Below, one piece after another: positions 470 to 63,587 of a stretch of DNA of 64,000 bases. Source of the stretch: an uncultured virus (IMG/VR IMGVR_UViG_3300021431_000088) (Duplodnaviria > Heunggongvirae > Uroviricota > Caudoviricetes); the IMG/VR virus record IMGVR_UViG_3300021431_000088; one strand, given 5' to 3'. Under the pieces are notes generated by a model that saw nothing but the letters and a program-made list of their open reading frames with translations, had not been told where the DNA came from and did not search any database. Position numbers and translations under genes: made by a program. Within the stretch, counting starts at the first letter, position 1. Every line of letters begins with the position of its first letter.

Positions 470-691
470 TTAAACCTCCTTTACATCGGCTCGTTCAAAC
501 TCTTCCATCAGAGTATCTTCGGTAAGCGGGTCTTCCCACTCTTCCAGATAGATGCCAATCACATTATCATGACCATAGTAATTGGCTACCTTCTCAAAAG
601 CATCACCATAACACTTCGCACCCGCAAGGCCAGATTCCTTGCGCCGCTTGTTGTCCACATCATCGAAATAGTCAATCTTATAGTAATACAT
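470..691 (-). CDS. hypothetical protein (73 aa)
   Basis: ORF with GGAG RBS, ends TAA. Confidence 0.75.
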   Translation of the reverse strand: MYYYKIDYFDDVDNKRRKESGLAGAKCYGDAFEKVANYYGHDNVIGIYLEEWEDPLTEDTLMEEFERADVKEV

Positions 692-8077: not shown

Positions 8078-8082
8078 TATAA

Positions 8083-8171
8083 CGGGGGTATCCGGATTCG
8101 AACCGGAGTAAGCGCCCTCAGAAGGCCCGAGTTTTAGAGACTCGTATGCTAGACCGCTGCATCATACCCCA
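8083..8171 (-). tRNA. amber suppressor tRNA (CUA), Gln-type acceptor, long variable arm
   Basis: CGAGT-CTCTAAA-ACTCG; TGGGGTA/TACCCCC-G73 acceptor; TCCGG-TTCGAAT-CCGGA T arm. Confidence 0.9.
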
Positions 8172-8207
8172 ACGTAAGGCTGATTTCGGCTCAGCCATAA
8201 GCCTTAA

Positions 8208-8546: not shown

Positions 8547-8649
8547 ATCTCATAACCTCCTTATGTTATGAAAAAATATTCTTAGAAGAGATGTTCCTTA
8601 CCATCTTTTCTAAAAATATTATACACGAAAACTCAACAAAAGTCAAATG

Positions 8650-44774: not shown

Positions 44775-45449
44775 TCACGCCTTAGAGGGGGCGTGATACA
44801 GGACGCGATCGCATTTCGGTTTCTTCATTAGATAGGCAAAGATTTCACTTTCAATTTCGGCATCTTTCAGACCAGTATGCGCCTCCTGAAAGTCATTGTC
44901 CTTAGTGATGTAGCGGTAGATAATTTCTGCGGTATAACGCGGGCGCGGAACCTTGTGCTTCGTCATATAACCATTCTTTTCACAGAAACGCCTATAGGAA
45001 GGCATCTCCTTGAAAGTTTGACGCGCCATCTTGTAAGTGTCCCATACTTCCGTGCCGTAGGGGAAGAAATACTTGATGCGGCCATTGGTCAGCACGCGAA
45101 TCGTATTGTTAAGTGCGTTAATGTCAAATCTGGCATTGTGCGCAACCACAATATGAATGCCCAGTTCCTTCATCTGAGCGCAAATGCGCTCACGGGCCAT
45201 CAGGAAATCCATAACCTCGCGCTCACCATTCCAAATGTCATCTCTGTATTGCGGGAGTTTATCGGCGTAATAAGCGTTTTGCATCGCATCCTTCATACCA
45301 TAGAAAACTTCCGTAATGACGTGGTTGATGGGCTCACCTACTAGATTACCATATCTATCAATTGGACGCGCGCCCACATCATAAGTAAAAGGCGCGCTGA
45401 AACTGCCCGCCGTTTCGACATCTGTCATCATGAACTTCTGCTTTTCCAT
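44775..45449 (-). CDS. DEDDh 3'-5' exonuclease, paralog 1
   Basis: DVET, AHNARFD, DT, EAHTGLKD. Confidence 0.88.
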   Translation of the reverse strand: MEKQKFMMTDVETAGSFSAPFTYDVGARPIDRYGNLVGEPINHVITEVFYGMKDAMQNAYYADKLPQYRDDIWNGEREVMDFLMARERICAQMKELGIHIVVAHNARFDINALNNTIRVLTNGRIKYFFPYGTEVWDTYKMARQTFKEMPSYRRFCEKNGYMTKHKVPRPRYTAEIIYRYITKDNDFQEAHTGLKDAEIESEIFAYLMKKPKCDRVLYHAPSKA

Positions 45450-47442: not shown

Positions 47443-48012
47443 TCACGCGGAGAGCAGGATGGAGGAATAGGAATAGGCATGGAAGGAAGGGGACTTAATA
47501 GCCCACTTGCCATAGCAAGCATAGTCAATGATGACCATGTGCCCGTGAAGGAAACCAAAGTTGCCGCCATGTAAGTCAGCAAGGCCGCAATCCTCGCACC
47601 AATCGCGCTCATCTTCGGTCATAAAATCCCACGCATCCTCGGCGCGATCTTCATCAATATCCTCAACGCGCGGCATAATGTAGTAGATACGGCCATTATA
47701 CTCATAACGAGTGATTTCTGCGAACAGATGCGCCATGCCCATACTTGCCGCACGCTTGTAAAGCTCGATTTCCTTTTCACACCCGCCGAAACGGTCGATA
47801 CCATACTTATTATAGTCAATTTTAATGACATAATCAGAGGTAATCAGAGCCACGCGCGTGTACCCGTGAGTACAATGGATATTTCGATAGGGGTGGTCTT
47901 TCAGGAAGCGGCGGGTGGCCTTCTCAAAGTCATATTCCTCATGGCACGAAATGAAATACGGCGCAATCAGATGAACGAATTGCTGGGCGCGGGCGACATA
48001 GTTGCTCTTCAT
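47443..48012 (-). CDS. protein-kinase-like fold protein, paralog 1
   Basis: G.TR, VIK, E..LY, DLH.GN.G, IIDY. Confidence 0.8.
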   Translation of the reverse strand: MKSNYVARAQQFVHLIAPYFISCHEEYDFEKATRRFLKDHPYRNIHCTHGYTRVALITSDYVIKIDYNKYGIDRFGGCEKEIELYKRAASMGMAHLFAEITRYEYNGRIYYIMPRVEDIDEDRAEDAWDFMTEDERDWCEDCGLADLHGGNFGFLHGHMVIIDYACYGKWAIKSPSFHAYSYSSILLSA

Positions 48013-48106
48013 TGGGCATCCTTCCTTTCTTGACATTAGTATATCACTTAATATGACAGTTGTCAACCCCTTTTTAGAAAAAAGTTTGGGCCGGCGCGAT
48101 GGGCGC

Positions 48107-48763
48107 TTAAGCACCCATACGCTCCAAACATTTCAGAAAGATTTCCTTTTCGATCATCACATCCTCAAGTCCCATATGCTTTTCCTCAAAGTTCATATCA
48201 CCAGTAATGTAGCGGTAGAGCACTTCGGCAGTCATACGAGGGCGCGGCTTAGAATGATTAGTCATAAAGCCATTGGCCTTACACCACGCAATGTACTGCG
48301 GGTCTTTTCCAAAAACTTCCTGCGCCATCTTCATGGTATCAATGATCTTCATGCCCCACGGCAGGAAGTAGCGCACCTTGCTTTTGGTCTGATACCGCAT
48401 AGTGGCGTTAAGGGTATTCACATCAAAGAAGGCATTATGCGCAACAATTCCCTCCACATCGTACTTGCGGCACAGTTCATGGAAAATCTTGTACATCTGC
48501 CAAGTATTTACAATCTTGCGCCGCCCCATCCGCATATCTTCCAAATATTGCGGAATCTTATCCGCGTAATAGGCTTCTTTCATGGAATCGGGCATCCGAA
48601 AAAATACATCCTCATTGATAAGGCTCATGGCCTCATACACCTTGCCAGTCTCATCGACCACCGCCAAACCCAACTCATAGTTTTGACCATTTTTTACATC
48701 CAGTTGGCCATTGACCTTCGGGGTCTCGGCGGTCTCACCGTCAAGGAACAGATACTTAGACAT
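48107..48763 (-). CDS. DEDDh 3'-5' exonuclease, paralog 2
   Basis: DGET, AHNAFFD, EKHMGLED; PRPR.TAE..YRYIT shared with 44775. Confidence 0.88.
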   Translation of the reverse strand: MSKYLFLDGETAETPKVNGQLDVKNGQNYELGLAVVDETGKVYEAMSLINEDVFFRMPDSMKEAYYADKIPQYLEDMRMGRRKIVNTWQMYKIFHELCRKYDVEGIVAHNAFFDVNTLNATMRYQTKSKVRYFLPWGMKIIDTMKMAQEVFGKDPQYIAWCKANGFMTNHSKPRPRMTAEVLYRYITGDMNFEEKHMGLEDVMIEKEIFLKCLERMGA

Positions 48764-49691: not shown

Positions 49692-50147
49692 TTATTCTCC
49701 TCTCCTACCAGTTAGGTATTTCAGTACCTTAATCATATCCTGCGGGTCATACGCATGACCGAGCCAGTTATCACGATTTGCTTCCTCGTCATCGAACAGA
49801 ATATCATCTTCATCCTTCATCACGATGCTTTTCGGCGTACCGTATCTCATGATATACACGCTATCCCAGCTAACGCTGTGAAGGTGCTTTTCCAGCCAAG
49901 CCAGCTTCGCCTGTTTGACAGCTCGATTGTAGCTTGCCGAGCCGCCCTTAGAAGTCCAGCTCACAATGCCGAGCTTGTAACCCAGCCGCTGTGCCTGATT
50001 CATCAGCTTTGCCAGCTGGCTCATGTTCCACATGACTGCGGCCTCCGCATACGGGGACGCATCTTCTGCGCGCAGTTTGGGGAGCCAGTTTTCAACCTCG
50101 TACAGATTGGCAATCGTGCCATCCATGTCCCACCAAATCGTTCTCAT
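49692..50147 (-). CDS. HAD-superfamily (5'-nucleotidase-like) hydrolase
   Basis: DMDGT, S.T, K, LFDD. Confidence 0.85.
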   Translation of the reverse strand: MRTIWWDMDGTIANLYEVENWLPKLRAEDASPYAEAAVMWNMSQLAKLMNQAQRLGYKLGIVSWTSKGGSASYNRAVKQAKLAWLEKHLHSVSWDSVYIMRYGTPKSIVMKDEDDILFDDEEANRDNWLGHAYDPQDMIKVLKYLTGRRGE

Positions 50148-52452: not shown

Positions 52453-52956
52453 TTATGCCCACGCATAGTCGATCACGCACACCTTACCATTACGATAGCC
52501 CACGTTGCCCTCGTGAAGGTCGCCGATGGTATTACACAGCCAGTGCTCTTCGTCATCCGTACAGTAGTTCCACCAGCACCGATCATAGTCATTAACATGG
52601 TTAATGCGCGGCATAATGGAAACGTGGCGGCCATTGATTTCCACAACGGTAGTTTTTGCCAGCAGGTATTCCATGCCATCAGCAACGGCCATCTTATAGA
52701 CATCTTCTTCCGTGCTGTTATTGCCCGCGCGGCCATCTTCCCAGCCCTGTTCGGGCGTCATGTCAAACTTGATAACATAATCAGCGCGAATGACAGCAAA
52801 GCGGGAAACGCCGTGAGCATAGGCAACTTTGCGGCTGTGCGTCATGTTGTAGTATTCCATGGCGCAGGTAAAATCTTCCCATGTCTCACAGTCGCGGAAC
52901 AAACGAGACAGATACAGCGCGAACTTGTAGCCGCGATTCTCATAGCTTGCCTTCAT
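52453..52956 (-). CDS. protein-kinase-like fold protein, paralog 2
   Basis: GVSR, DYVIK, DLHEGNVG, VIDYA. Confidence 0.8.
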   Translation of the reverse strand: MKASYENRGYKFALYLSRLFRDCETWEDFTCAMEYYNMTHSRKVAYAHGVSRFAVIRADYVIKFDMTPEQGWEDGRAGNNSTEEDVYKMAVADGMEYLLAKTTVVEINGRHVSIMPRINHVNDYDRCWWNYCTDDEEHWLCNTIGDLHEGNVGYRNGKVCVIDYAWA

Positions 52957-53199
52957 TGCGTTTCCCTTCCTTTCGTGATAGAGTATATCACATAGTCGGC
53001 GACTTGTCAAGCCTTATTTTTTCAATTCCGTCCAAATCATCCCACAAAAGTAGGCCACCCAAAAGATCCCCAAAATCACATTCATGCCTTGACTACCTCC
53101 TTTCTACGGTTCCATTATAACGCCAATGCGGGCAAATGTCAAGGGGTATTTTTTGATAATGTTTTCACAAAGTTTTGGCCGGCTGAAAAGGGAAGACCC

Positions 53200-53646
53200 T
53201 CACGCCATCCGCATGAGGGTCTTTTCGTTCGTGAGCTCTGCGCCGTCGAACTTGATCTGAATCTGCTCACCGTTCAGCTCAATGTCGCCAGCTACGTTGA
53301 AGGGAACCGAATCCTTCACCCAGGTCTGATGGGCAACCTGTTCGGTGATGATCTTCTCGAACCGCTCACCCCGGTTGTACTTGTCATCGGTGTCCAGCAT
53401 TTCCGCCGCGCCCAGCGCGATAGCCGCGCCGCTCTTGACCAGCTCTTTCCGATCGGCGGCCGCCAGCTTTACGCGGATCTTGGCCCAGCCGCCGCGCTTG
53501 GAGCTCATGCGGTCGAGCTTGAGGAAGGTGTCGGCAATGTGGTTGCTCATCGTGTAGTAAAGGATGCCGTTGAGGATAAAGCCGATAATGTAGGCGGTGG
53601 CGGCGGACAGGCTGTTGTAGCGGTCAATCATTTCGTTGCGGGTCAT
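53200..53646 (-). CDS. putative PD-(D/E)XK-like nuclease-fold protein, paralog 1 of 3
   Basis: NRGERFE...AGDI...IQIK. Confidence 0.75.
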   Translation of the reverse strand: MTRNEMIDRYNSLSAATAYIIGFILNGILYYTMSNHIADTFLKLDRMSSKRGGWAKIRVKLAAADRKELVKSGAAIALGAAEMLDTDDKYNRGERFEKIITEQVAHQTWVKDSVPFNVAGDIELNGEQIQIKFDGAELTNEKTLMRMA

Positions 53647-53865: not shown

Positions 53866-53916
53866 AAAAAATGGGCATCCCCGCCGTGGGTCCGAGTTCA
53901 CTCTGTCCCTCATCTA
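53866..53916 (-). ncRNA. small RNA family B, copy 1
   Basis: Own TTGACA/TATAAT promoter, no ORF; AGAT..GGACCCACGGCG..TGCCCATTTTT. Confidence 0.55.
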
Positions 53917-54018
53917 AGTTTATTATACGCGCGCCGGCCGAAATGTCAACCCCCTAAATGAAAAAAATTATTTTTCAAAAAGGGTTGACATATGAGAGGG
54001 GAAGTGGTAGTATATCAT

Positions 54019-54091
54019 CAGTGAGAGAGAGTAGCAACTCTTGAAGGGCGCTCAACAGAGCCAGAGGTGGCCCACCACAAAAAACCGCTAC
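54019..54091 (+). ncRNA. small pseudoknotted RNA family A, copy 1
   Basis: Promoter TTGACA-17-TAGTAT; covarying helices with copy at 59860. Confidence 0.65.
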
Positions 54092-54175
54092 ATTTTTTTA
54101 GGAAAGCACTTGACAGAATAGTCAAGTTGTGGTAATATAATAATGTCGGGGAGGATCCCCGAAAGAAGGAGGAAA

Positions 54176-54382
54176 ATGGTAATGGAAAAGAATGTGGTTC
54201 GCGGTCGTGGGATTGGTTTTTGTGGTCTGCTGACCATCGCCTTCATCGTGCTGAAACTGTGTGGCGTGATCGCGTGGTCGTGGTGGGCGGTGCTGTCGCC
54301 GATGCTGATTTCTATCGGGCTGACGTTCGTGCTGATGCTGGTTGTGCTGGTGATTGCGCTGATTAAGACCCTGAATGATTAA
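54176..54382 (+). CDS. small membrane protein (FIVLKL.GVI.WSWW.VL.P family)
   Basis: Two or three hydrophobic helices; GGAGG RBS; terminator follows. Confidence 0.8.
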   Translation: MVMEKNVVRGRGIGFCGLLTIAFIVLKLCGVIAWSWWAVLSPMLISIGLTFVLMLVVLVIALIKTLND

Positions 54383-54565
54383 AGGAAAAGCGGAGCAAAA
54401 TGCTCCGCTTTTCTGTTTCGGGATTACTTGTTATTTAGTTATAACTAACTGCGAAATAGCCGGCATGAAATGAAATTATTTTTCCGGGACGCTTGACAAA
54501 CGGAACGTTATGCTATATAATAAAGACACAAAGGAAGAGGGTAAACCCTCAAAGGAGGAAGGATC

Positions 54566-54760
54566 ATGGTAGAGTTCGGAAAGATGTGGACGATCACCAC
54601 GGCGGAGGATCTCATGGACGCGCTGGATACGCTGGATCGGCAGGAGTTCATCGCGGAGATGAGCGATGATTTTAGCTGCTGGCGGCGCGAGAAGGACGAG
54701 GTTGCGCGCCAGCGGCGTCAGGTGATGACAATGGCAAGGGATCGCGGCCTCATCCCGTGA
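54566..54760 (+). CDS. hypothetical protein (MVEFGKMW family), copy 1
   Basis: Paralog of 62150-62341. Confidence 0.8.
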   Translation: MVEFGKMWTITTAEDLMDALDTLDRQEFIAEMSDDFSCWRREKDEVARQRRQVMTMARDRGLIP

Positions 54761-54840
54761 TCCCTATAAAAAAAGTTTGGGAAGGGGCTTGACTTTTTAC
54801 CCGGCTTGCGATATAATAAGACCATCAAAGGGGGTGAGAC

Positions 54841-55038
54841 ATGGGGATGATGTTCAAGGGCGAAATCGCCAACGAGTATGGCGAGGTGATCGGCCGCTAC
54901 TGGTTCGAGATCTCCGCTGGCTCGTATGTCCTTCGGCTCTACGGTGTAAACCGCTACGGCTACACCGCCGAGGGCATCCGGCGCTGGTGCCTCGATAATG
55001 GGGCACAGTGGTGGGAGTCTGACTCCTGCGCACGGTGA
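54841..55038 (+). CDS. hypothetical protein
   Basis: Own promoter and RBS. Confidence 0.7.
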   Translation: MGMMFKGEIANEYGEVIGRYWFEISAGSYVLRLYGVNRYGYTAEGIRRWCLDNGAQWWESDSCAR

Positions 55039-55254
55039 GAATCCCTTGCTCCGAGGAACAAATCGGAGCCATTTTTTTGCCTTTTAATAGTAAAGTCCTG
55101 CCACTTGGGCGGGCGTTTTCTTATGCGCAAAAATAGTTAGTTAGTCATAACTAACTGCTGGCCGGTCTGTTTTGAGAATCTGGGCCGGCCAATTAGGGAG
55201 TTAGTCATAACTACATAACAAAATGAAATTGCGCATAAAAAAAGAGGGAAGATC

Positions 55255-55376
55255 CCTCTCTGTACAAGCCTCGCGCTTTTATTTGCTCCTTTGTGCCCCT
55301 GTGTGTCTAGTCGTGTTCGCTTGCGCTACTGGGACGAGGGCGGCGGGTGTTGCTGGCTTGTAGGCTCTCACCCTGT
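55255..55376 (-). ncRNA. putative ~120-nt RNA
   Basis: TTGACA promoter, no credible ORF, closing stem TACAAGCC/GGCTTGTA, terminator follows. Confidence 0.5.
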
Positions 55377-55578
55377 GATTGTATATTACCACGCGGGGCA
55401 TAAAATGTCAAGGGGTATTTTGAAAAAGTTTTGGGACGCTTTATCACTTTATCATAGTAAAGTGTGCCGGACGGTTTGAAAATGAAATTGCGGTTAGTTA
55501 TAACTAACTTATGGGATACTGGCCGGCCTGCTGGGTTAGTTATCACTAACTCGATCGCAAAATGAAATTGGGACGAGG

Positions 55579-55722
55579 TTTACTCGTCCCACTGGCGCCC
55601 CTTGTGCTTGGGCGGCTTGCGGCGCTTGTCGGGGATGACCTTGGTGGCGGGATTGATCGCGCCCCAGTCGCGGCGGAGGGACTTGTTGACCTCGTAACTG
55701 TCGCGAACCTTAACCTTCTTCA
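55579..55722 (-). CDS. small basic protein
   Basis: AAAGGAGG RBS; RRDWGAINPATKVIPDKRR. Confidence 0.65.
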
Positions 55723-55806
55723 TTTCGGGATTCCTCCTTTGTTTCCTTCATCGTAGATATAATACCAAAAAGAAAATGAAATGTCAAGTGTTAAAATGAA
55801 ATTATT

Positions 55807-56124
55807 TTATTCGATCCACCCGCCATAGCGAACAGAAACAATCTGATCATCATAGATACTTTCGGGCGTCCCATTGTCGTACATAATTAGGGACGCAATA
55901 TCATTTAGATTCCAATCTTCAATTCCTTCAAACTTCCAAATCAGTTCGGCCCAATCGACACAAACAACGAGATCGTTCTTATAGTCAAACGCAATGACGC
56001 GCGCCGTGCGCGGGTAAAGTCCATCAATTTCGGGCGCGGCCGCAGACGTTTCCGCAAGCGCGCAACCATTGGAAAAGGAAATCAAATTGACAAACAGGAT
56101 GGCCACCGCAAGGATCTTCTTCAT
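55807..56124 (-). CDS. protein with N-terminal signal peptide
   Basis: MKK plus hydrophobic segment and A-x-A. Confidence 0.75.
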   Translation of the reverse strand: MKKILAVAILFVNLISFSNGCALAETSAAAPEIDGLYPRTARVIAFDYKNDLVVCVDWAELIWKFEGIEDWNLNDIASLIMYDNGTPESIYDDQIVSVRYGGWIE

Positions 56125-56215
56125 TTTAGGAACCTCTCTTTTCTCTTATTTCGGGAACCGTCTGTATTATAGCAAAATGAAATTGATTTGTCAAGAGGGA
56201 AATAAAATTGAGTGC

Positions 56216-56671
56216 TCACGCTGTGAGCACTCTTGTCAGCATCTTTTCGTTGGTTAGTTCGGCGCTGTCAAACTTGATTTGAATCTGTTCGCCGTTGAGT
56301 TCAATATCACCCGCCACATTGAAGGGGATGGAATCCTTCACCCATTCGCTACCCGTGAGTCGTTCGGTGATGATTTTTTCAAACCGTTCGCCGCGGTTGT
56401 ACTTATCATCAGTCATCAGCAGTTCGTCAGTTCCTAAGCAGAACGCTTTGCCCGATTCTACGAACGCTTTCCGGGTGGCGGCATTCAGTCTCACGCGAAC
56501 CTTTGCCATGCCGCCGCGTTTTGAGGACGCCCGATCAAACTTGAGGATGTTGGCGGGCAGGTGGCCGTCGAACTTGATGTAGTAGAGAAGGTGGTCAAGG
56601 ATGAATCCAACGATGTACCCGTTTGCGGCGGTCAAGGTGTTGTAGAGGTTAGTCATTTCGGTAAGCGTCAT
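56216..56671 (-). CDS. putative PD-(D/E)XK-like nuclease-fold protein, paralog 2 of 3
   Basis: Highly similar to 53200. Confidence 0.75.
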   Translation of the reverse strand: MTLTEMTNLYNTLTAANGYIVGFILDHLLYYIKFDGHLPANILKFDRASSKRGGMAKVRVRLNAATRKAFVESGKAFCLGTDELLMTDDKYNRGERFEKIITERLTGSEWVKDSIPFNVAGDIELNGEQIQIKFDSAELTNEKMLTRVLTA

Positions 56672-56776
56672 TGTGGTTCCCTTCCTTTCCTTTGATGTCT
56701 TCATTATACAGGATAGCAAGCCGGTTGTCAAGCCCCTTAGTAAACTTTTTTTTGGCCGGCTGATCGTGGCAAGGCG

Positions 56777-56959
56777 TTAGCCTTGCCACGGGATGACCGT
56801 GCCGCCGATCTCATAGGCACAAGCAAGGGCGTCCTTTGCGTTATCCCACGCGCCATAGAACCACATTTCCCCATCCCATTCGCGGGCAACGATCCACGCG
56901 CACGGCGGCAAATCGTTCGGGATATTGACTACCACATAACCATTGAGTTCAAGCGTCAT
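56777..56959 (-). CDS. hypothetical protein
   Basis: Promoter plus AAAGGAG RBS. Confidence 0.7.
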   Translation of the reverse strand: MTLELNGYVVVNIPNDLPPCAWIVAREWDGEMWFYGAWDNAKDALACAYEIGGTVIPWQG

Positions 56960-57025
56960 TGCGATTCGCTCCTTTCCTTCACTACCATCATTATACCACT
57001 TTCGTGGCGTTTGTCAAGGGAGAAA

Positions 57026-57430
57026 TTACAGGCAGATCGTTTTTCCTTTTTCTTCCAGATAGATCGCCGTGTGTCCTTCCTTTTCCCATTGGCGGCAGTT
57101 GGTCTTATCATCATCAATCAGTATACCGTTCTCACGAATATAGTCAACCTTCCTGCCATAACCTACGATACAGATAAAGTGATCGGCGTCCATCATCGGC
57201 ACATACTTTTTCAACCAATCAATCTTGCCTTGACGTGCGTCATCGCTTGCGGCTTTGGTCAGAATATAGCACACATCGCCGCGCGCAATTAGACTATTGA
57301 GGATGCCAACATTTTCCATAAACGGCGCCAGATTCGCCAGAAAGTCATAACTATACGCGCGTTCCCGTACACCCTCATAGGCGCTGTGAAAATCTGCCAG
57401 CACGCCATCCATATCAAAGTAGTAAGTCAT
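57026..57430 (-). CDS. HAD-superfamily 5'(3')-deoxyribonucleotidase-like protein
   Basis: FDMDGVLADF, ILT, K..WL, LIDD. Confidence 0.85.
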   Translation of the reverse strand: MTYYFDMDGVLADFHSAYEGVRERAYSYDFLANLAPFMENVGILNSLIARGDVCYILTKAASDDARQGKIDWLKKYVPMMDADHFICIVGYGRKVDYIRENGILIDDDKTNCRQWEKEGHTAIYLEEKGKTICL

Positions 57431-57612
57431 TACCGTGGCCTCCTTACACTTAGAGTATACAGGATAGCGGCGCATTTGTCAACCCCTTTACCGGATTTTT
57501 TTCATTGATGGTTAGTCATAACTAACCCACTGGCCGGCCAGTTCGTTAGCCATAGCTAACTGAGCAGCGCGGCCGCAATAAAATAACCCTCCGCCGCTGG
57601 CGGAGGGTCTTA

Positions 57613-57696
<84 letters not shown>

Positions 57697-57780
57697 TCGA
57701 TTCTTCTTTATTATACAGCAATTTTCCAAAATGTCAAGTGTTTGGGAAAACTTTTTTCGTAGCTCGCTGGGATCTCACCT

Positions 57781-57933
57781 TCACGCCTGCGGCGTGAAGG
57801 TGATGGTCATCTCGTCCCAGTCGATGGTCATCAGCTGGCCCTTGAACTGGTCAGCGCCCAGCGCGAACAGCTCATCCAGTCCCTCAATATCCATGGTGAA
57901 GCGATCCTGCTCAGTGATGATGGTGAAGGTCAT
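57781..57933 (-). CDS. hypothetical protein
   Basis: GAAAGGAG RBS. Confidence 0.65.
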   Translation of the reverse strand: MTFTIITEQDRFTMDIEGLDELFALGADQFKGQLMTIDWDEMTITFTPQA

Positions 57934-58043
57934 TGTCGTAGCTCCTTTCGTCTTTCGGTGTCTATATACTATCACATTCCGGTCAGCTTGTCAAGCCCTT
58001 GACTGAAACTTTTTTCAGCTGGCGGAGGGGCTTCCCGCTGGCC

Positions 58044-58499
58044 TCATACGAGGCCAGCGAGGAGCTTTCCAAGCACCCGCTCGTTGGTCAGCTCCGCTCC
58101 GTCAAGCTTGATCTGGATCTCAACCCCATCCACCCGGATGTCTCCGGCCACCCAGAAGGGGGTGCTATCCTTGACCCAGCTCTTGCCCGTCCACTTCTCA
58201 GTGATGACGCGCTCCGCGTTCTCGCCCTTGTTGTGGGCCGGGTCAGCGGTCAGCAGGCTATCAGGGCCCAGCCGCTCAGCCGTGGCGCTCAGCTCAGCAC
58301 GGGCCGCGGCGTTCAGCTTAACGCGGAGCTTGGCGAACCCGCCCTTTTTCGTGCTCGCACGATCCCGGCGGATGAACCGGGTCAGCTCGTCAAAGCTCAG
58401 CTTCTGGACAAAGAGGTTGTGCGCGTGTACAAACGCAAGCGCGTACACATGGGCAGGGCTGAAACGGTTGTAGGTGTTGAGCATCTCGTTGGTATCCAT
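58044..58499 (-). CDS. putative PD-(D/E)XK-like nuclease-fold protein, paralog 3 of 3
   Basis: NKGENAE...WVKDS.PF.VAGDI...IQIK. Confidence 0.75.
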   Translation of the reverse strand: MDTNEMLNTYNRFSPAHVYALAFVHAHNLFVQKLSFDELTRFIRRDRASTKKGGFAKLRVKLNAAARAELSATAERLGPDSLLTADPAHNKGENAERVITEKWTGKSWVKDSTPFWVAGDIRVDGVEIQIKLDGAELTNERVLGKLLAGLV

Positions 58500-58643
58500 G
58501 GGGTTTACCTCCTTCATTTGATGGCTTCATTATACAGGATAGACGCCCGGCTGTCAACCCTTTTTTATGACTTTTTTGTAAATAAATTATTACAATTATG
58601 TTAAGATTTTGGGCCTAGCTCGTAACAATTTCGTAACAATTTT

Positions 58644-58754
58644 TTATATCGGCGGCCGATATATCGCCAGCCGATACATTGACAGCTGATGTATCGAGCT
58701 TCGATATATCGAGCTCCTATATATCGAGCTTCGATATATCGGCAGCCGATATAC
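58644..58754. repeat. seven tandem 15-bp units ATATATCG-N5-CG
   Basis: For example ATATATCGAGCTTCG and ATATATCGGCAGCCG; palindromic CGATATATCG at the junctions. Confidence 0.9.
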
Positions 58755-58764
58755 CTCATCAGCT

Positions 58765-58990
58765 TAGGTAGTTAGTCATAACTAACCTGAGTTAGCCTTG
58801 ACTAACCGTTAGTCATAACTAACCGTAGTTAGTCATAACTAACCCATTAGTTAGTTAGTCATAACTAACTCGCCGGTTAGTCAAGGCTAACAGTAGTTAG
58901 TCATAACTAACCGCGGCCGATCGTTAGTTAGCTATAACTAACCCGATGGGTTAGTTATAACTAATAGTAGTTAGTCATAACTAACTTCGG
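58765..58990. repeat. cluster of ten GTTAG-N6-CTAAC palindromes
   Basis: Consensus AGTTAGTCATAACTAAC with short variable spacers. Confidence 0.92.
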
Positions 58991-59283
58991 CCTACTAATA
59001 TCCTACTAAACTGGCAACTAAATTGAGTTAAATTAGTTGAATATTTTTTCCTATTATCAACCGGACGGGCGTTTGAGCCAATTTCGCGCGCTCTCAACGC
59101 AAATCTCGAAAAATCATGAATAATTATATAAAAACATGTATAAAATAAAGGGTTTTATACAGAAAATACATGGTTTTTTGTATATTATTCATCGAATGAT
59201 TTTTCTATCCGGCGGAGGGATTTTGCGCGTGAGCTAAATCGTTTAGTTGGTGTTTAGTTAAGTTAGTTATAACTAACTAAATT

Positions 59284-59335
59284 AAAAATAGGCAGGTTCG
59301 CCGTAGGTCCGACGCGACTTTTGCGCTTCATCTGA
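59284..59335 (-). ncRNA. small RNA family B, copy 2
   Basis: TTGACA/TATAAT promoter; AGAT..GGACCTACGGCG..TGCCTATTTTT. Confidence 0.55.
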
Positions 59336-59422
59336 TTATTATTATACTCACGTGGCCGCAAATGTCAACCCCTTTTTTGAGATTTTTTTGAGAAAATGAA
59401 AAAAGGGGGATCCCCCCTTTTT

Positions 59423-59731
59423 TCAGCAGTAAATCAATTCCATGCCTTGCCATTTCAGAATAGAAATCTGCTGATGTTCGCGGCCGATTCGCAAGGCTTC
59501 CTTTTTTGTGCTGATTCGGCTTGACTTGTCAATGTAGTAAATACCATTGGAAAACCATACGCCGCAATTCCCTTTATAGGTTTTAATAGCCTGCATCGCG
59601 GTTGTGATCGTCTTACATTCTACACCTTCGGTGGCAACCTGATAGCCCGTTTTGTACTGGATAGCGATTCCATTCTTCAAGGTAAGGCCGTCATTGTTTT
59701 TGAGCGCCTTCAAGGTTTTCATAGTGATCAT
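59423..59731 (-). CDS. hypothetical protein (102 aa)
   Basis: Promoter, RBS, terminator. Confidence 0.8.
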   Translation of the reverse strand: MITMKTLKALKNNDGLTLKNGIAIQYKTGYQVATEGVECKTITTAMQAIKTYKGNCGVWFSNGIYYIDKSSRISTKKEALRIGREHQQISILKWQGMELIYC

Positions 59732-59859
59732 TGCGTTTCCCTTCCTTTCCTTTGATACCTATATATTATACTGACCGGGTTAAAATGTCAACCCCTAAAA
59801 TGAAAAAACTTTTTTGTGAATAGGCTTGACATATGCCGGATAAAGTGATATTATAATGT

Positions 59860-59930
59860 CAGTGGGAGAGCGTGGCAACTCCTAAAGGGCGCCGAAAGGC
59901 AAGAGGTGGCCCACCAAAAAAAACAGCCAC
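59860..59930 (+). ncRNA. small pseudoknotted RNA family A, copy 2
   Basis: Promoter TTGACA-17-TATTAT; compensatory changes relative to copy 1. Confidence 0.65.
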
Positions 59931-60052
59931 AACCCCTTGAAAAAACTTTTGAAAAAAAGTTAAAAAAGGGGTTGACAAACAGGGAAATCGGTGTTATACT
60001 CATAATGTAAAAAGGACAAGGAAAAGTCCTAAAAACCGGAAAGGGGATCGCA

Positions 60053-60373
60053 ATGAAGGTTACTAAGGAAATGAAGAAGGTTTTCGCGCTGGTAGATGAA
60101 ATGCGTGAGGAAGAAAAGAAGCGCGTGCGCGTGCCCGTGTATTACAAGCGGCATGGGCAAATGATTCGCCGCAACTACGATGACACGGTGGATACCGATC
60201 GCTATAACCTGCTGTTCTTCAAGAAGGAAGGCGGTATCCGCGAAAACCGTTGCTTTACCTGTTGCGAGTGTGGCGGCAAGTGTGATTATTTTGAAATCGC
60301 GTGGTGGGCGTGTGAGGAAGGCGAGACCGTGTGTGATGACTGTATCGCTATGGAATATGGGGATGACATTTAA
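60053..60373 (+). CDS. zinc-finger protein
   Basis: CCECG...CDDC. Confidence 0.75.
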   Translation: MKVTKEMKKVFALVDEMREEEKKRVRVPVYYKRHGQMIRRNYDDTVDTDRYNLLFFKKEGGIRENRCFTCCECGGKCDYFEIAWWACEEGETVCDDCIAMEYGDDI

Positions 60374-62819: not shown

Positions 62820-63102
62820 AGCTTCGGGCCGGCAAAATGCCGGCCTTTTTTATGTGCTGCGTTAGCTATAACTAACCAGCGCGCGGATTCCTCGTGAGCC
62901 TGCCCAACCTCTCTCCGGTCTCCCCGGTGTCCTCGACTGTATCTGTATTATAAAACGTCAAGCCGTGTTTGTCAAGCCCTTTTTCAAAAGATTTTTCAAA
63001 AGATTTTTTCGCAAAAGGGGTTGACATTTTATCCGGCATATGATATACTAATAATGTCAAAAGGGGAAGGAAAACCCCTAAAAACCAGAAAGGGGCAAGA
63101 AA

Positions 63103-63306: not shown

Positions 63307-63413
63307 TAGCCCTAATTTTTTTCAAAAAAGGGGTTGACATTTCATCCGGCATATGGTATACTTATACCGTAAAGAGGGGAAGGAAAACCCCTAAAAACCA
63401 GAAAGGGCGCTAA

Positions 63414-63587
63414 AATGACTGTTGCGATGCTGATGGAAATCCTTTCCCATATGTCCCCTGATGCGGTGGTTGAGTTTGATGATACCTATACCCAATGCGA
63501 AGGTTGGGAAGAAGGGCACGAAGATGCTACCATGGTGGTATCTGATGCGGTGGCCGATGGTGGCCGTGTGGTTCTGCACGGCGAATA
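63414..63587 (+). CDS. small acidic protein
   Basis: MTVAMLMEILSHMSPDAVVEF...; promoter, leader, terminator. Confidence 0.7.

What the first reader, a model, noticed from the sequence alone, without database searches (positions are those of the whole stretch)
54019..59930. Two-copy promoter-driven pseudoknot RNA with compensatory base changes (family A)
Seen: 54019-54091 and 59860-59930 each follow a consensus promoter and have no ORF. Helices covary: GAGAG/CTCTT vs GGGAG/CTCCT; loop GTAGC pairs with distal GCTAC vs GTGGC with GCCAC (pseudoknot); GCTC-AACA-GAGC vs GCC-GAAA-GGC. Invariant parts are GGGC...AGAGGTGGCCCACCA and an A-rich linker. I do not recognise the family. Inference: an early-expressed ~70-nt structured RNA, possibly an anti-defence decoy (pseudoknotted antitoxin mimic as in type III ToxIN systems), a ligand sponge or a ribozyme.
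Basis: partly seen in the sequence, partly recalled or inferred. Interest (0 to 1): 0.8.

Follow-up and report, generated by a model that had tools for sequence, protein, structure and literature searches.

The report
Undescribed double-pseudoknot phage small RNA
A gut-type bacterial virus carries two copies of a small gene that makes no protein but a tightly knotted 70-base RNA of a shape that matched no catalogued RNA family, most likely a stand-alone decoy aimed at the host cell.

Summary
Confirmed and extended. Both copies (54020-54091, 59861-59930) start 6 nt after a consensus promoter in the promoter-dense region of a tRNA-rich tailed phage. I found 23 distinct members in related phage contigs, none in bacterial genomes (0 of 29 hits). 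No Rfam match. Neighbours vary, 9 of 26 placements are closed by a terminator-like site, and the RNA is patchy among relatives, so it behaves as a stand-alone accessory RNA. It fails tested features of type III antitoxins, HDV-like and hammerhead ribozymes, put and riboswitches. Best reading: a nuclease-stable, shape-based decoy for a host protein (0.45, inferred); rivals are a new 5'-trimming ribozyme, a cis-acting leader and a ligand sponge. Expression and function are untested.

The parts
53985..54013 (+). sigma70/sigmaA-type promoter of copy 1 (TTGACA, 17 nt, TAGTAT with TG); predicted +1 at 54020
   Evidence: spacer 17 and 6 nt to the element in 20 of 20 members parsed
54020..54091 (+). 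RNA copy 1 (72 nt): 3-nt leader; S1 54023-54027/54038-54042; PK1 54031-54035/54087-54091; S3 54046-54049/54070-54073; hairpin P3 54050-54061; S4 54066-54068/54074-54076; A-rich linker 54077-54086
   Evidence: (87.7 bits)
54093..54099 (+). run of 7 T directly after PK1; possible pause or 3' end (inferred)
54110..54138 (+). next promoter, driving its own gene (54161-54382, PHROG 1374, unknown function)
53922..53949 (-). divergent promoter back-to-back with copy 1; drives a different ORF-less RNA (family B)
59826..59854 (+). promoter of copy 2 (TTGACA, 17 nt, TATTAT with TG); predicted +1 at 59861
59861..59930 (+). RNA copy 2 (70 nt): S1 59864-59868/59879-59883; PK1 59872-59876/59926-59930; S3 59887-59890/59909-59912; hairpin P3 59891-59900; S4 59905-59907/59913-59915; A-rich linker 59916-59925
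   Evidence: (97.9 bits)
59972..60000 (+). next promoter, driving a 106-aa ORF of no known family (60053-60373)
59763..59791 (-). divergent promoter back-to-back with copy 2; drives a 102-aa ORF

Best explanation
A stand-alone, trans-acting phage small RNA. Host RNA polymerase makes it early from a near-consensus promoter (inferred from sequence). It folds into a nested double pseudoknot (shown by covariation): an outer H-type knot (S1, PK1, and an 8-10-nt A-rich linker that probably lies in the S1 minor groove) that ties the 5' and 3' ends together, and inside its long loop a second small knot (S3, S4) capped by a variable hairpin. The result would be a rigid ~20-bp, nuclease-resistant body with almost no free single strand (inferred). 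It most likely works by shape, as an abundant decoy or mimic that binds a host protein (a defence factor or other RNA-binding or RNA-degrading enzyme) during take-over. The target is not identified.
For: Structure. Stand-alone: 19 downstream ORF calls fall in 15 clusters; 9 of 26 placements have a terminator-like site straight after the RNA, and in 6 of those the next unit is convergent, leaving nothing to regulate in cis. Accessory: model R1 hit 2 of 21 related virus records at E<=0.1 (only 1 strong) and 0 of 2 complete ones; up to 3 divergent copies per contig. Shape over sequence: paired positions swap freely between subtypes and the unpaired positions constant in all members are adenines. 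It sits among ORFan cassettes with 52 of the window's 64 promoter matches in 40-64 kb. Precedent for RNA mimicry by a phage: pseudo-ToxI (PMC3475682, passages read).
Against: No binding partner, transcript or phenotype is shown. No cognate host RNA was found: no Rfam match, no member in bacterial genomes. 17 of 26 placements run into the next promoter with no detected terminator, so their 3' end needs processing or an unusual stop. R1 misses divergent subtypes (it missed L242), so patchiness is overstated. The wobble-type pair at the base of S1 in 23 of 23 members is not explained by this reading.
Confidence: 0.45

Rival explanations
1. A self-cleaving or 5'-end-processing ribozyme of a new class that removes its 3-nt triphosphate leader, on a scaffold resembling a rearranged HDV fold (S1 as P1, PK1 as P2, S3 as P1.1, S4 as P3, the hairpin as P4).
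For: Nested double pseudoknot of ribozyme size. S1 starts at +4 in every member; its first pair is G.U in 20 and A.C in 3 of 23, never Watson-Crick (that A.C mimics G.U geometry and that HDV has a wobble at its cleavage site is recalled, one search gave no usable paper). The G-C pair at the end of S4 is invariant and would lie near this site in a stacking model (inference). Non-circularly permuted hammerheads exist (PMC10085705, passages).
Against: The HDV order is not kept: only 1-2 nt lie between PK1 and S1, so there is no P3/L3 there. The base after the P4-like hairpin is C in only 6 of 16 close members. No unpaired G or C is invariant. No CUGANGA (0 of 23). Terminator-closed copies have no cargo to process. 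G[AG]GAG at +4 is the commonest position across this clade's promoters (58 at offset 9), so the fixed start may belong to the promoter cassette.
Confidence: 0.15
2. A cis-acting leader: a put- or EAR-like RNA that modifies RNA polymerase to read through terminators, or an xrRNA-like cap that stabilises the read-through transcript.
For: Fixed distance from the promoter and ~70 nt, like putRNA (73 nt modelled; PMC9378689, passages). 17 of 26 placements read on into same-strand units; both window copies head a rightward array. S1 plus AAA and ACCAGAAA resemble this clade's generic mRNA leader (63 of 947 promoters; weak model hit at 63373-63414), suggesting origin from a leader. xrRNAs block RNase J1 (PMC8374639, passages).
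Against: Downstream genes have their own consensus promoter 74-196 nt from +1; 9 of 26 placements end at a terminator-like site, 6 facing convergent units; 11 lie inside same-strand arrays rather than at their head. put has two stem-loops and the paper never mentions a pseudoknot. An xrRNA needs upstream RNA to be degraded; here only 3 nt precede the fold.
Confidence: 0.15
3. An aptamer that soaks up a small molecule (nucleotide second messenger or metabolite).
For: H-type pseudoknots with A-rich minor-groove strands are typical of several riboswitch aptamers (recalled; the CptI paper notes the motif in SAM-II). No expression platform, as expected for a sponge.
Against: No riboswitch family reaches threshold; the only touch is a partial SAM-II hit at 19 bits against a gathering score of 44, E 6.6. 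The S1/PK1 junction position varies (pair or mismatch) and the unpaired bases of the inner knot differ between subtypes, so no conserved pocket is evident.
Confidence: 0.12
4. A mimic of a tRNA 3' end (GGGC/GCCC followed by ACCA) or a Shine-Dalgarno decoy (GAGGUG bulge) that binds tRNA-handling enzymes or 30S subunits.
For: ACCA follows S3 in 18 of 23 members and NCCA in 20; GAGG lies in the bulge of 16 of 23. The phage has 22 tRNA genes.
Against: Both motifs are lost in divergent subtypes through compensatory changes, and their bases are paired in S4; the CCA is internal, 8-10 nt before PK1.
Confidence: 0.05

Closest known systems
Type III antitoxin RNAs (ToxI, CptI) and phage PhiTE pseudo-ToxI (PMC4627078, PMC3475682; passages read)
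   Same: H-type pseudoknot with an A-rich loop; a phage-encoded non-coding RNA that could act by mimicry
   Different: Those are 34-50-nt units cut from tandem arrays and pseudo-ToxI copies the host sequence; this is a single 68-81-nt unit from its own promoter with a second pseudoknot, no array, no adjacent toxin
HDV-like ribozymes including theta ribozymes of gut phages (PMC10879173; passages read)
   Same: nested double pseudoknot, similar size, wobble-type first pair, gut-phage setting
   Different: helix order differs, no P3/L3 inside the first loop, no conserved J4/2 cytosine, not next to tRNA 3' ends
HK022 putRNA (PMC9378689; passages read)
   Same: ~70-nt RNA at a fixed place just after an early phage promoter
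   Different: put is two stem-loops acting in cis ahead of genes; this is double-pseudoknotted and often closed by its own terminator-like site
PeSL promoter-stem-loop cassettes of T4-type phages (PMC2839356; passages read)
   Same: region of ORFan cassettes each with its own consensus promoter, shuffled between relatives; the RNA occupies such a slot
   Different: PeSL stem-loops overlap or flank the promoter and act as terminators; here the structure is the transcribed payload
Viral xrRNAs (PMC8374639; passages read)
   Same: compact two-pseudoknot fold likely to resist exonucleases
   Different: found in RNA viruses of eukaryotes downstream of degradable RNA; here it begins at +4 of a DNA-phage transcript and the ring topology is untested

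Membership tests
Any Rfam 15 family | score at or above gathering threshold | tested here: not met
   whole window, 23 hits, none on either copy; E<=10 scan of 53900-60100, none on the copies; six homologous loci, best overlap SAM-II 19 bits vs 44
Type III antitoxin / pseudo-ToxI | H-type pseudoknot with A-rich loop | tested here: met
   S1 + PK1 + 8-10-nt A-rich linker in 23 of 23
Type III antitoxin / pseudo-ToxI | tandem array of 34-50-nt repeats | tested here: not met
   no tandem repeat over either copy among 12 rows; copies 5.8 kb apart; units 68-81 nt; feature from PMC12373285 passage
Type III antitoxin / pseudo-ToxI | cognate toxin gene downstream (antitoxin only, not required of a mimic) | tested here: not met
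   26 ORFs of the region against PADLOC: only DEDDh/PDC-S48 hits on two exonucleases; no toxin family among 28 ORFs in Pfam
Type III antitoxin / pseudo-ToxI | binds and neutralises a type III toxin | not testable with these tools
   needs a protection assay
HDV-like ribozyme | nested double pseudoknot in the order P1-P2-P3-P1.1-P4 (order recalled) | tested here: not met
   two pseudoknots present, but only 1-2 nt between PK1 and S1 3' strand; the 3-bp helix lies after the hairpin
HDV-like ribozyme | catalytic C at first position of J4/2 (PMC10879173) | tested here: not met
   base after the hairpin is C in 6, A in 3, G in 7 of 16 close members
HDV-like ribozyme | self-cleavage 5' of the first stem | not testable with these tools
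   needs in vitro transcription
Hammerhead ribozyme (any permutation) | CUGANGA core | tested here: not met
   0 of 23
HK022 put-like antiterminator | ~70 nt, promoter-proximal | tested here: met
HK022 put-like antiterminator | two stem-loops in a V shape | tested here: not met
   two covarying pseudoknots against the structure
HK022 put-like antiterminator | lies ahead of genes that depend on read-through | tested here: not met
   6 of 26 placements end at a terminator-like site facing convergent units; downstream units have their own promoters
HK022 put-like antiterminator | binds RNA polymerase beta' zinc-binding domain | not testable with these tools
   needs biochemistry
xrRNA | ring of ~15 nt around the 5' end; blocks 5'-3' exonuclease | not testable with these tools
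   no RNA 3D modelling or assay available; feature
Riboswitch | consistent downstream gene class and expression platform | tested here: not met
   19 downstream ORF calls in 15 clusters; next gene has its own promoter
PeSL cassette | simple stem-loop overlapping or flanking the promoter, acting as terminator | tested here: not met
   structure begins at +4 and is pseudoknotted; feature

The most novel reading that the evidence does not exclude
This is the first defined member of an arsenal of RNA-only take-over or anti-defence genes: a phage clade that fills its early promoter cassettes with several unrelated structured RNAs as other phages do with small proteins, this one being either an RNA inhibitor of a host defence protein with a new fold or a new class of small ribozyme that trims its own triphosphate leader.
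Probability: 0.35. Interest if true: 0.88.

Novelty: new variant of a known kind. Interest (0 to 1): 0.66.

Why it matters
Few phage RNAs are known to act against host defences, and compact natural double pseudoknots are mostly ribozymes or riboswitches. A 70-nt RNA with a defined start, five natural subtypes and ready-made compensatory variants can be tested at once for cleavage, ligand binding and protein partners. Its setting suggests that this phage clade uses many RNA-only early genes (other ORF-less families in 10-15 of 22 related loci, with no Rfam hit but tRNA in 7 loci scanned), a class that protein-centred anti-defence screens would miss.

Tried and rejected
No whole genome is held for the window; the nearest virus record G001 has no match. 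Loose pattern scans gave chance hits: 118 of 118 were non-members; 3 of 26 were members; 21 of 76; 6 of 52 and 0 of 29 bacterial-genome hits lay behind a promoter. blastn of copy 2 against GenBank phages: 2 chance hits; the neighbouring 148-aa protein has no match there; one exonuclease matches Enterococcus phages at about 37%, too distant to name a host. Expression: no RNA holder listed; contigs of three RNA runs did not cover either copy and the fourth run is probably DNA; this is no evidence either way. Three loci (L167, L173, L199) are identical to the window copies with flanks and were not counted as independent. L388 (other RNA family) and L390 (outer knot kept, inner knot ambiguous) were left out of the 23. 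A 5'-leader/ACCA three-way junction was dropped because S4 uses those bases and the leader varies. tRNA-end and Shine-Dalgarno mimicry were weakened (see rivals). Larger RNAs in L236, L237, L240, L241 share a 5' hairpin and A-rich linker but pair differently and were not counted. Literature: 10 searches listed no paper describing this motif. Fremin 2023 (PMC10690425): passages read; 4 readable supplements had no motif hit, but the files with IMG/VR alignments and models could not be read, so an unnamed entry there is not excluded. Weinberg 2017 supplement unreadable (its motifs should be covered by the Rfam scan, my assumption). Eckert 2023 supplement: no hit. Minerva preprint: outline only. 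PMC10383478: passages, only general context.
Full report
Setting. The window is part of a tailed-phage genome: 22 tRNA genes, a tmRNA and a cow-rumen-4 RNA, a tail protein and an NlpC/P60-SH3 protein. From 40 kb on it is a field of short genes of no known family, each behind its own near-consensus promoter (52 of 64 matches in the window; 28 sites against 8.4 expected in 53.6-60.2 kb). Related complete records are about 179 kb. Contigs similar to this stretch occur in a bovine gut library. A Firmicutes host is my inference from promoters, ribosome-binding sites and the lysin-like gene; it is not shown.

The observation. Both copies are as described. A model built from 16 distinct members finds only these two in the window (97.9 and 87.7 bits; next 12.6). 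Neither matches Rfam at the gathering score or at E<=10.

Relatives. Pattern scans found close members in 3 virus contigs and in 21 of 76 metagenome hits; three of these are identical to the window copies and some duplicate the virus contigs. All 33 matches of the full pattern lie behind TTGAC, 17 nt, a -10 box and 6 nt. Model searches and descriptor scans added divergent subtypes (L231, L232, L255, L242). The full descriptor gave 19 distinct hits in 2.37 million strand-bases of related phage DNA, all behind a promoter, and 0 in 0.98 million shuffled. The final set is 23 distinct sequences of 68-81 nt. None of 29 pattern hits in bacterial and archaeal genomes was a member.

Structure. S1 (5 bp) starts at +4. 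Its loop pairs with the 3' end (PK1): nine different 4-bp cores pair at 36 of 36 positions, and 0 of 100,000 reshuffles do as well; long-loop subtypes extend this helix with bulges. After a 3-4-nt junction comes S3 (4 bp, 92 of 92 cells paired), a variable hairpin, a short junction, three bases, one unpaired base, the S3 partner, three more bases, and an 8-10-nt A-rich linker. The two triplets pair (S4): GGU/ACC, GCG/CGC, GGC/GCC, and two types with one mismatch; 13 of 15 pairs over five types, reached by 2 of 120 permutations. That test is modest and partly post hoc, so I used the last virus scan with a pattern that fixes only promoter, S1 and the start of S3. Of 12 hits, 7 were known members and 5 were new: 3 have S3, a fully paired S4, the A linker and PK1, 1 keeps the outer knot with an ambiguous inner one, and 1 belongs to another RNA family. 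Two of the new ones carry GGU/ACC inside the subtype where L242 has GGC/GCC, an independent compensatory change. Over 23 members S4 pairs in 67 of 69 cells. So the RNA is a small pseudoknot nested in the long loop of a larger one. That S1, PK1, S4, S3 and the hairpin stack into one rod with the adenines in minor grooves is a model, not a result.

What is conserved. Unpaired positions constant in all members are adenines (first and last base of the S1 loop, start and middle of the linker). Junction bases of the inner knot differ by subtype. The first S1 pair is G.U in 20 and A.C in 3, never Watson-Crick. The GAGG and CCA motifs are lost in some subtypes and are paired in S4.

Context. Neighbouring genes vary (19 downstream ORF calls, 15 clusters, some calls probably spurious). 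Of 26 placements, 9 have a terminator-like site straight after the RNA (6 then face convergent units), and 17 run into the next same-strand promoter 74-196 nt from +1; 11 have a divergent promoter within 100 nt upstream (simple scans). One contig holds three subtypes within 5 kb. The model hit 2 of 21 related records, one strongly, and neither complete one, though it misses the most divergent subtype. No toxin or defence gene was found among the region's ORFs apart from two DEDDh exonucleases. S1 with its trailing AAA and the ACCAGAAA segment resemble the clade's ordinary mRNA leader (63 of 947 promoters), so the RNA may have arisen from a leader cassette (inference).

Mechanism. Shown: a conserved double pseudoknot, fixed promoter geometry, independence from neighbours. 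Inferred: early, abundant transcription; stability; action in trans; recognition by shape. The best single reading is a decoy for a host protein (0.45). A new 5'-trimming ribozyme (0.15) rests on the wobble-type first pair and the HDV-like set of helices but lacks HDV's order and catalytic base. A put- or xrRNA-like cis role (0.15) fits the read-through copies but not the terminator-closed, convergent ones. A ligand sponge (0.12) lacks a conserved pocket. The rest covers unlisted functions.

Comparison with what is known. It works like no tested family for certain and is a member of none: see the membership table. Ten literature searches listed no description; the alignment files of the large IMG/VR survey PMC10690425 could not be read, and its pipeline covered such contigs, so an anonymous entry there is possible. 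The scan's earlier notes hold no look-alike sequence but list analogous promoter-driven pseudoknot RNAs in other phages, which led me to test PeSL and put.

Verdict. A real, apparently undescribed phage RNA family with a better-supported and more complex fold than first reported, narrow in range, function untested. Interest 0.66.

Noticed in passing
window promoters at 53949, 59368, 62474 (minus strand; core motif at 53893, 59310, 62412): A second promoter-driven ORF-less RNA family (B, core GGACCYACGG, ending in a U-run), three copies here and present in 12 of 22 related loci; no Rfam hit.
   Followed up: partly
window 62975 minus strand (motif at 62937): A third ORF-less promoter-driven RNA (family C), in 10 of 22 related loci.
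   Followed up: partly
window 55411 minus strand; L233-L254: Further ORF-less transcripts behind consensus promoters; relatives carry many long structured ones, a GTAAGACC motif occurs in 15 of 22 loci, and Rfam finds only tRNAs in 7 loci scanned.
   Followed up: partly
L002, L144, L154, L169, L187, L215, L222 just 3' of the RNA: A hairpin with a conserved CAGGUAAGACC apex follows PK1 and often a U-run; the same module ends other RNAs (4 of 22 loci).
   Followed up: partly
L236, L237, L240, L241: Larger promoter-driven RNAs sharing a 5' GGGAG hairpin and an A-rich linker before a pseudoknot but with a different insert.
   Followed up: no
L390 about 536-620 (+): Divergent member with the outer knot and an ambiguous inner knot, fused to further structured sequence.
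   Followed up: partly
window 53200-53646, 56216-56674, 58044-58517 (minus): Three paralogous ~150-aa genes of no Pfam or PHROG family; motif pattern suggests a PD-(D/E)xK nuclease fold (my reading); Atlas lead ThaI-type restriction endonuclease at score 0.90 only.
   Followed up: partly
window 44775-45449, 48107-48763; 49692-50147, 57026-57475; 47443-48015, 52453-52962: Paired paralogues: DEDDh exonucleases, HAD 5'-nucleotidase-like proteins and phrog_4301 proteins.
   Followed up: no
window 59850-59878 and 54009-54037 (minus): Promoter-like matches on the opposite strand inside both copies (11 and 9 of 12); not kept in divergent subtypes.
   Followed up: partly
window 58645-58985: Arrays of palindromic repeats (TTAGTYATAACTAAC type and GATATATC type) in a gene-free stretch, a candidate origin or protein-binding array.
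   Followed up: no
window 8082-8172, 2491-2788, 8550-8613 (minus): tRNA with CTA anticodon (possible amber suppressor; several TAG codons seem to interrupt genes in the late region, not checked), tmRNA, and cow-rumen-4 RNA.
   Followed up: no
window 63021, 63334 (+), 50747, 47170, 43192 (-): A shared mRNA leader: short hairpin with an AAGGAAAA loop, then AAA and ACCAGAAAGG before the start codon; 63 of 947 promoters in the clade.
   Followed up: partly
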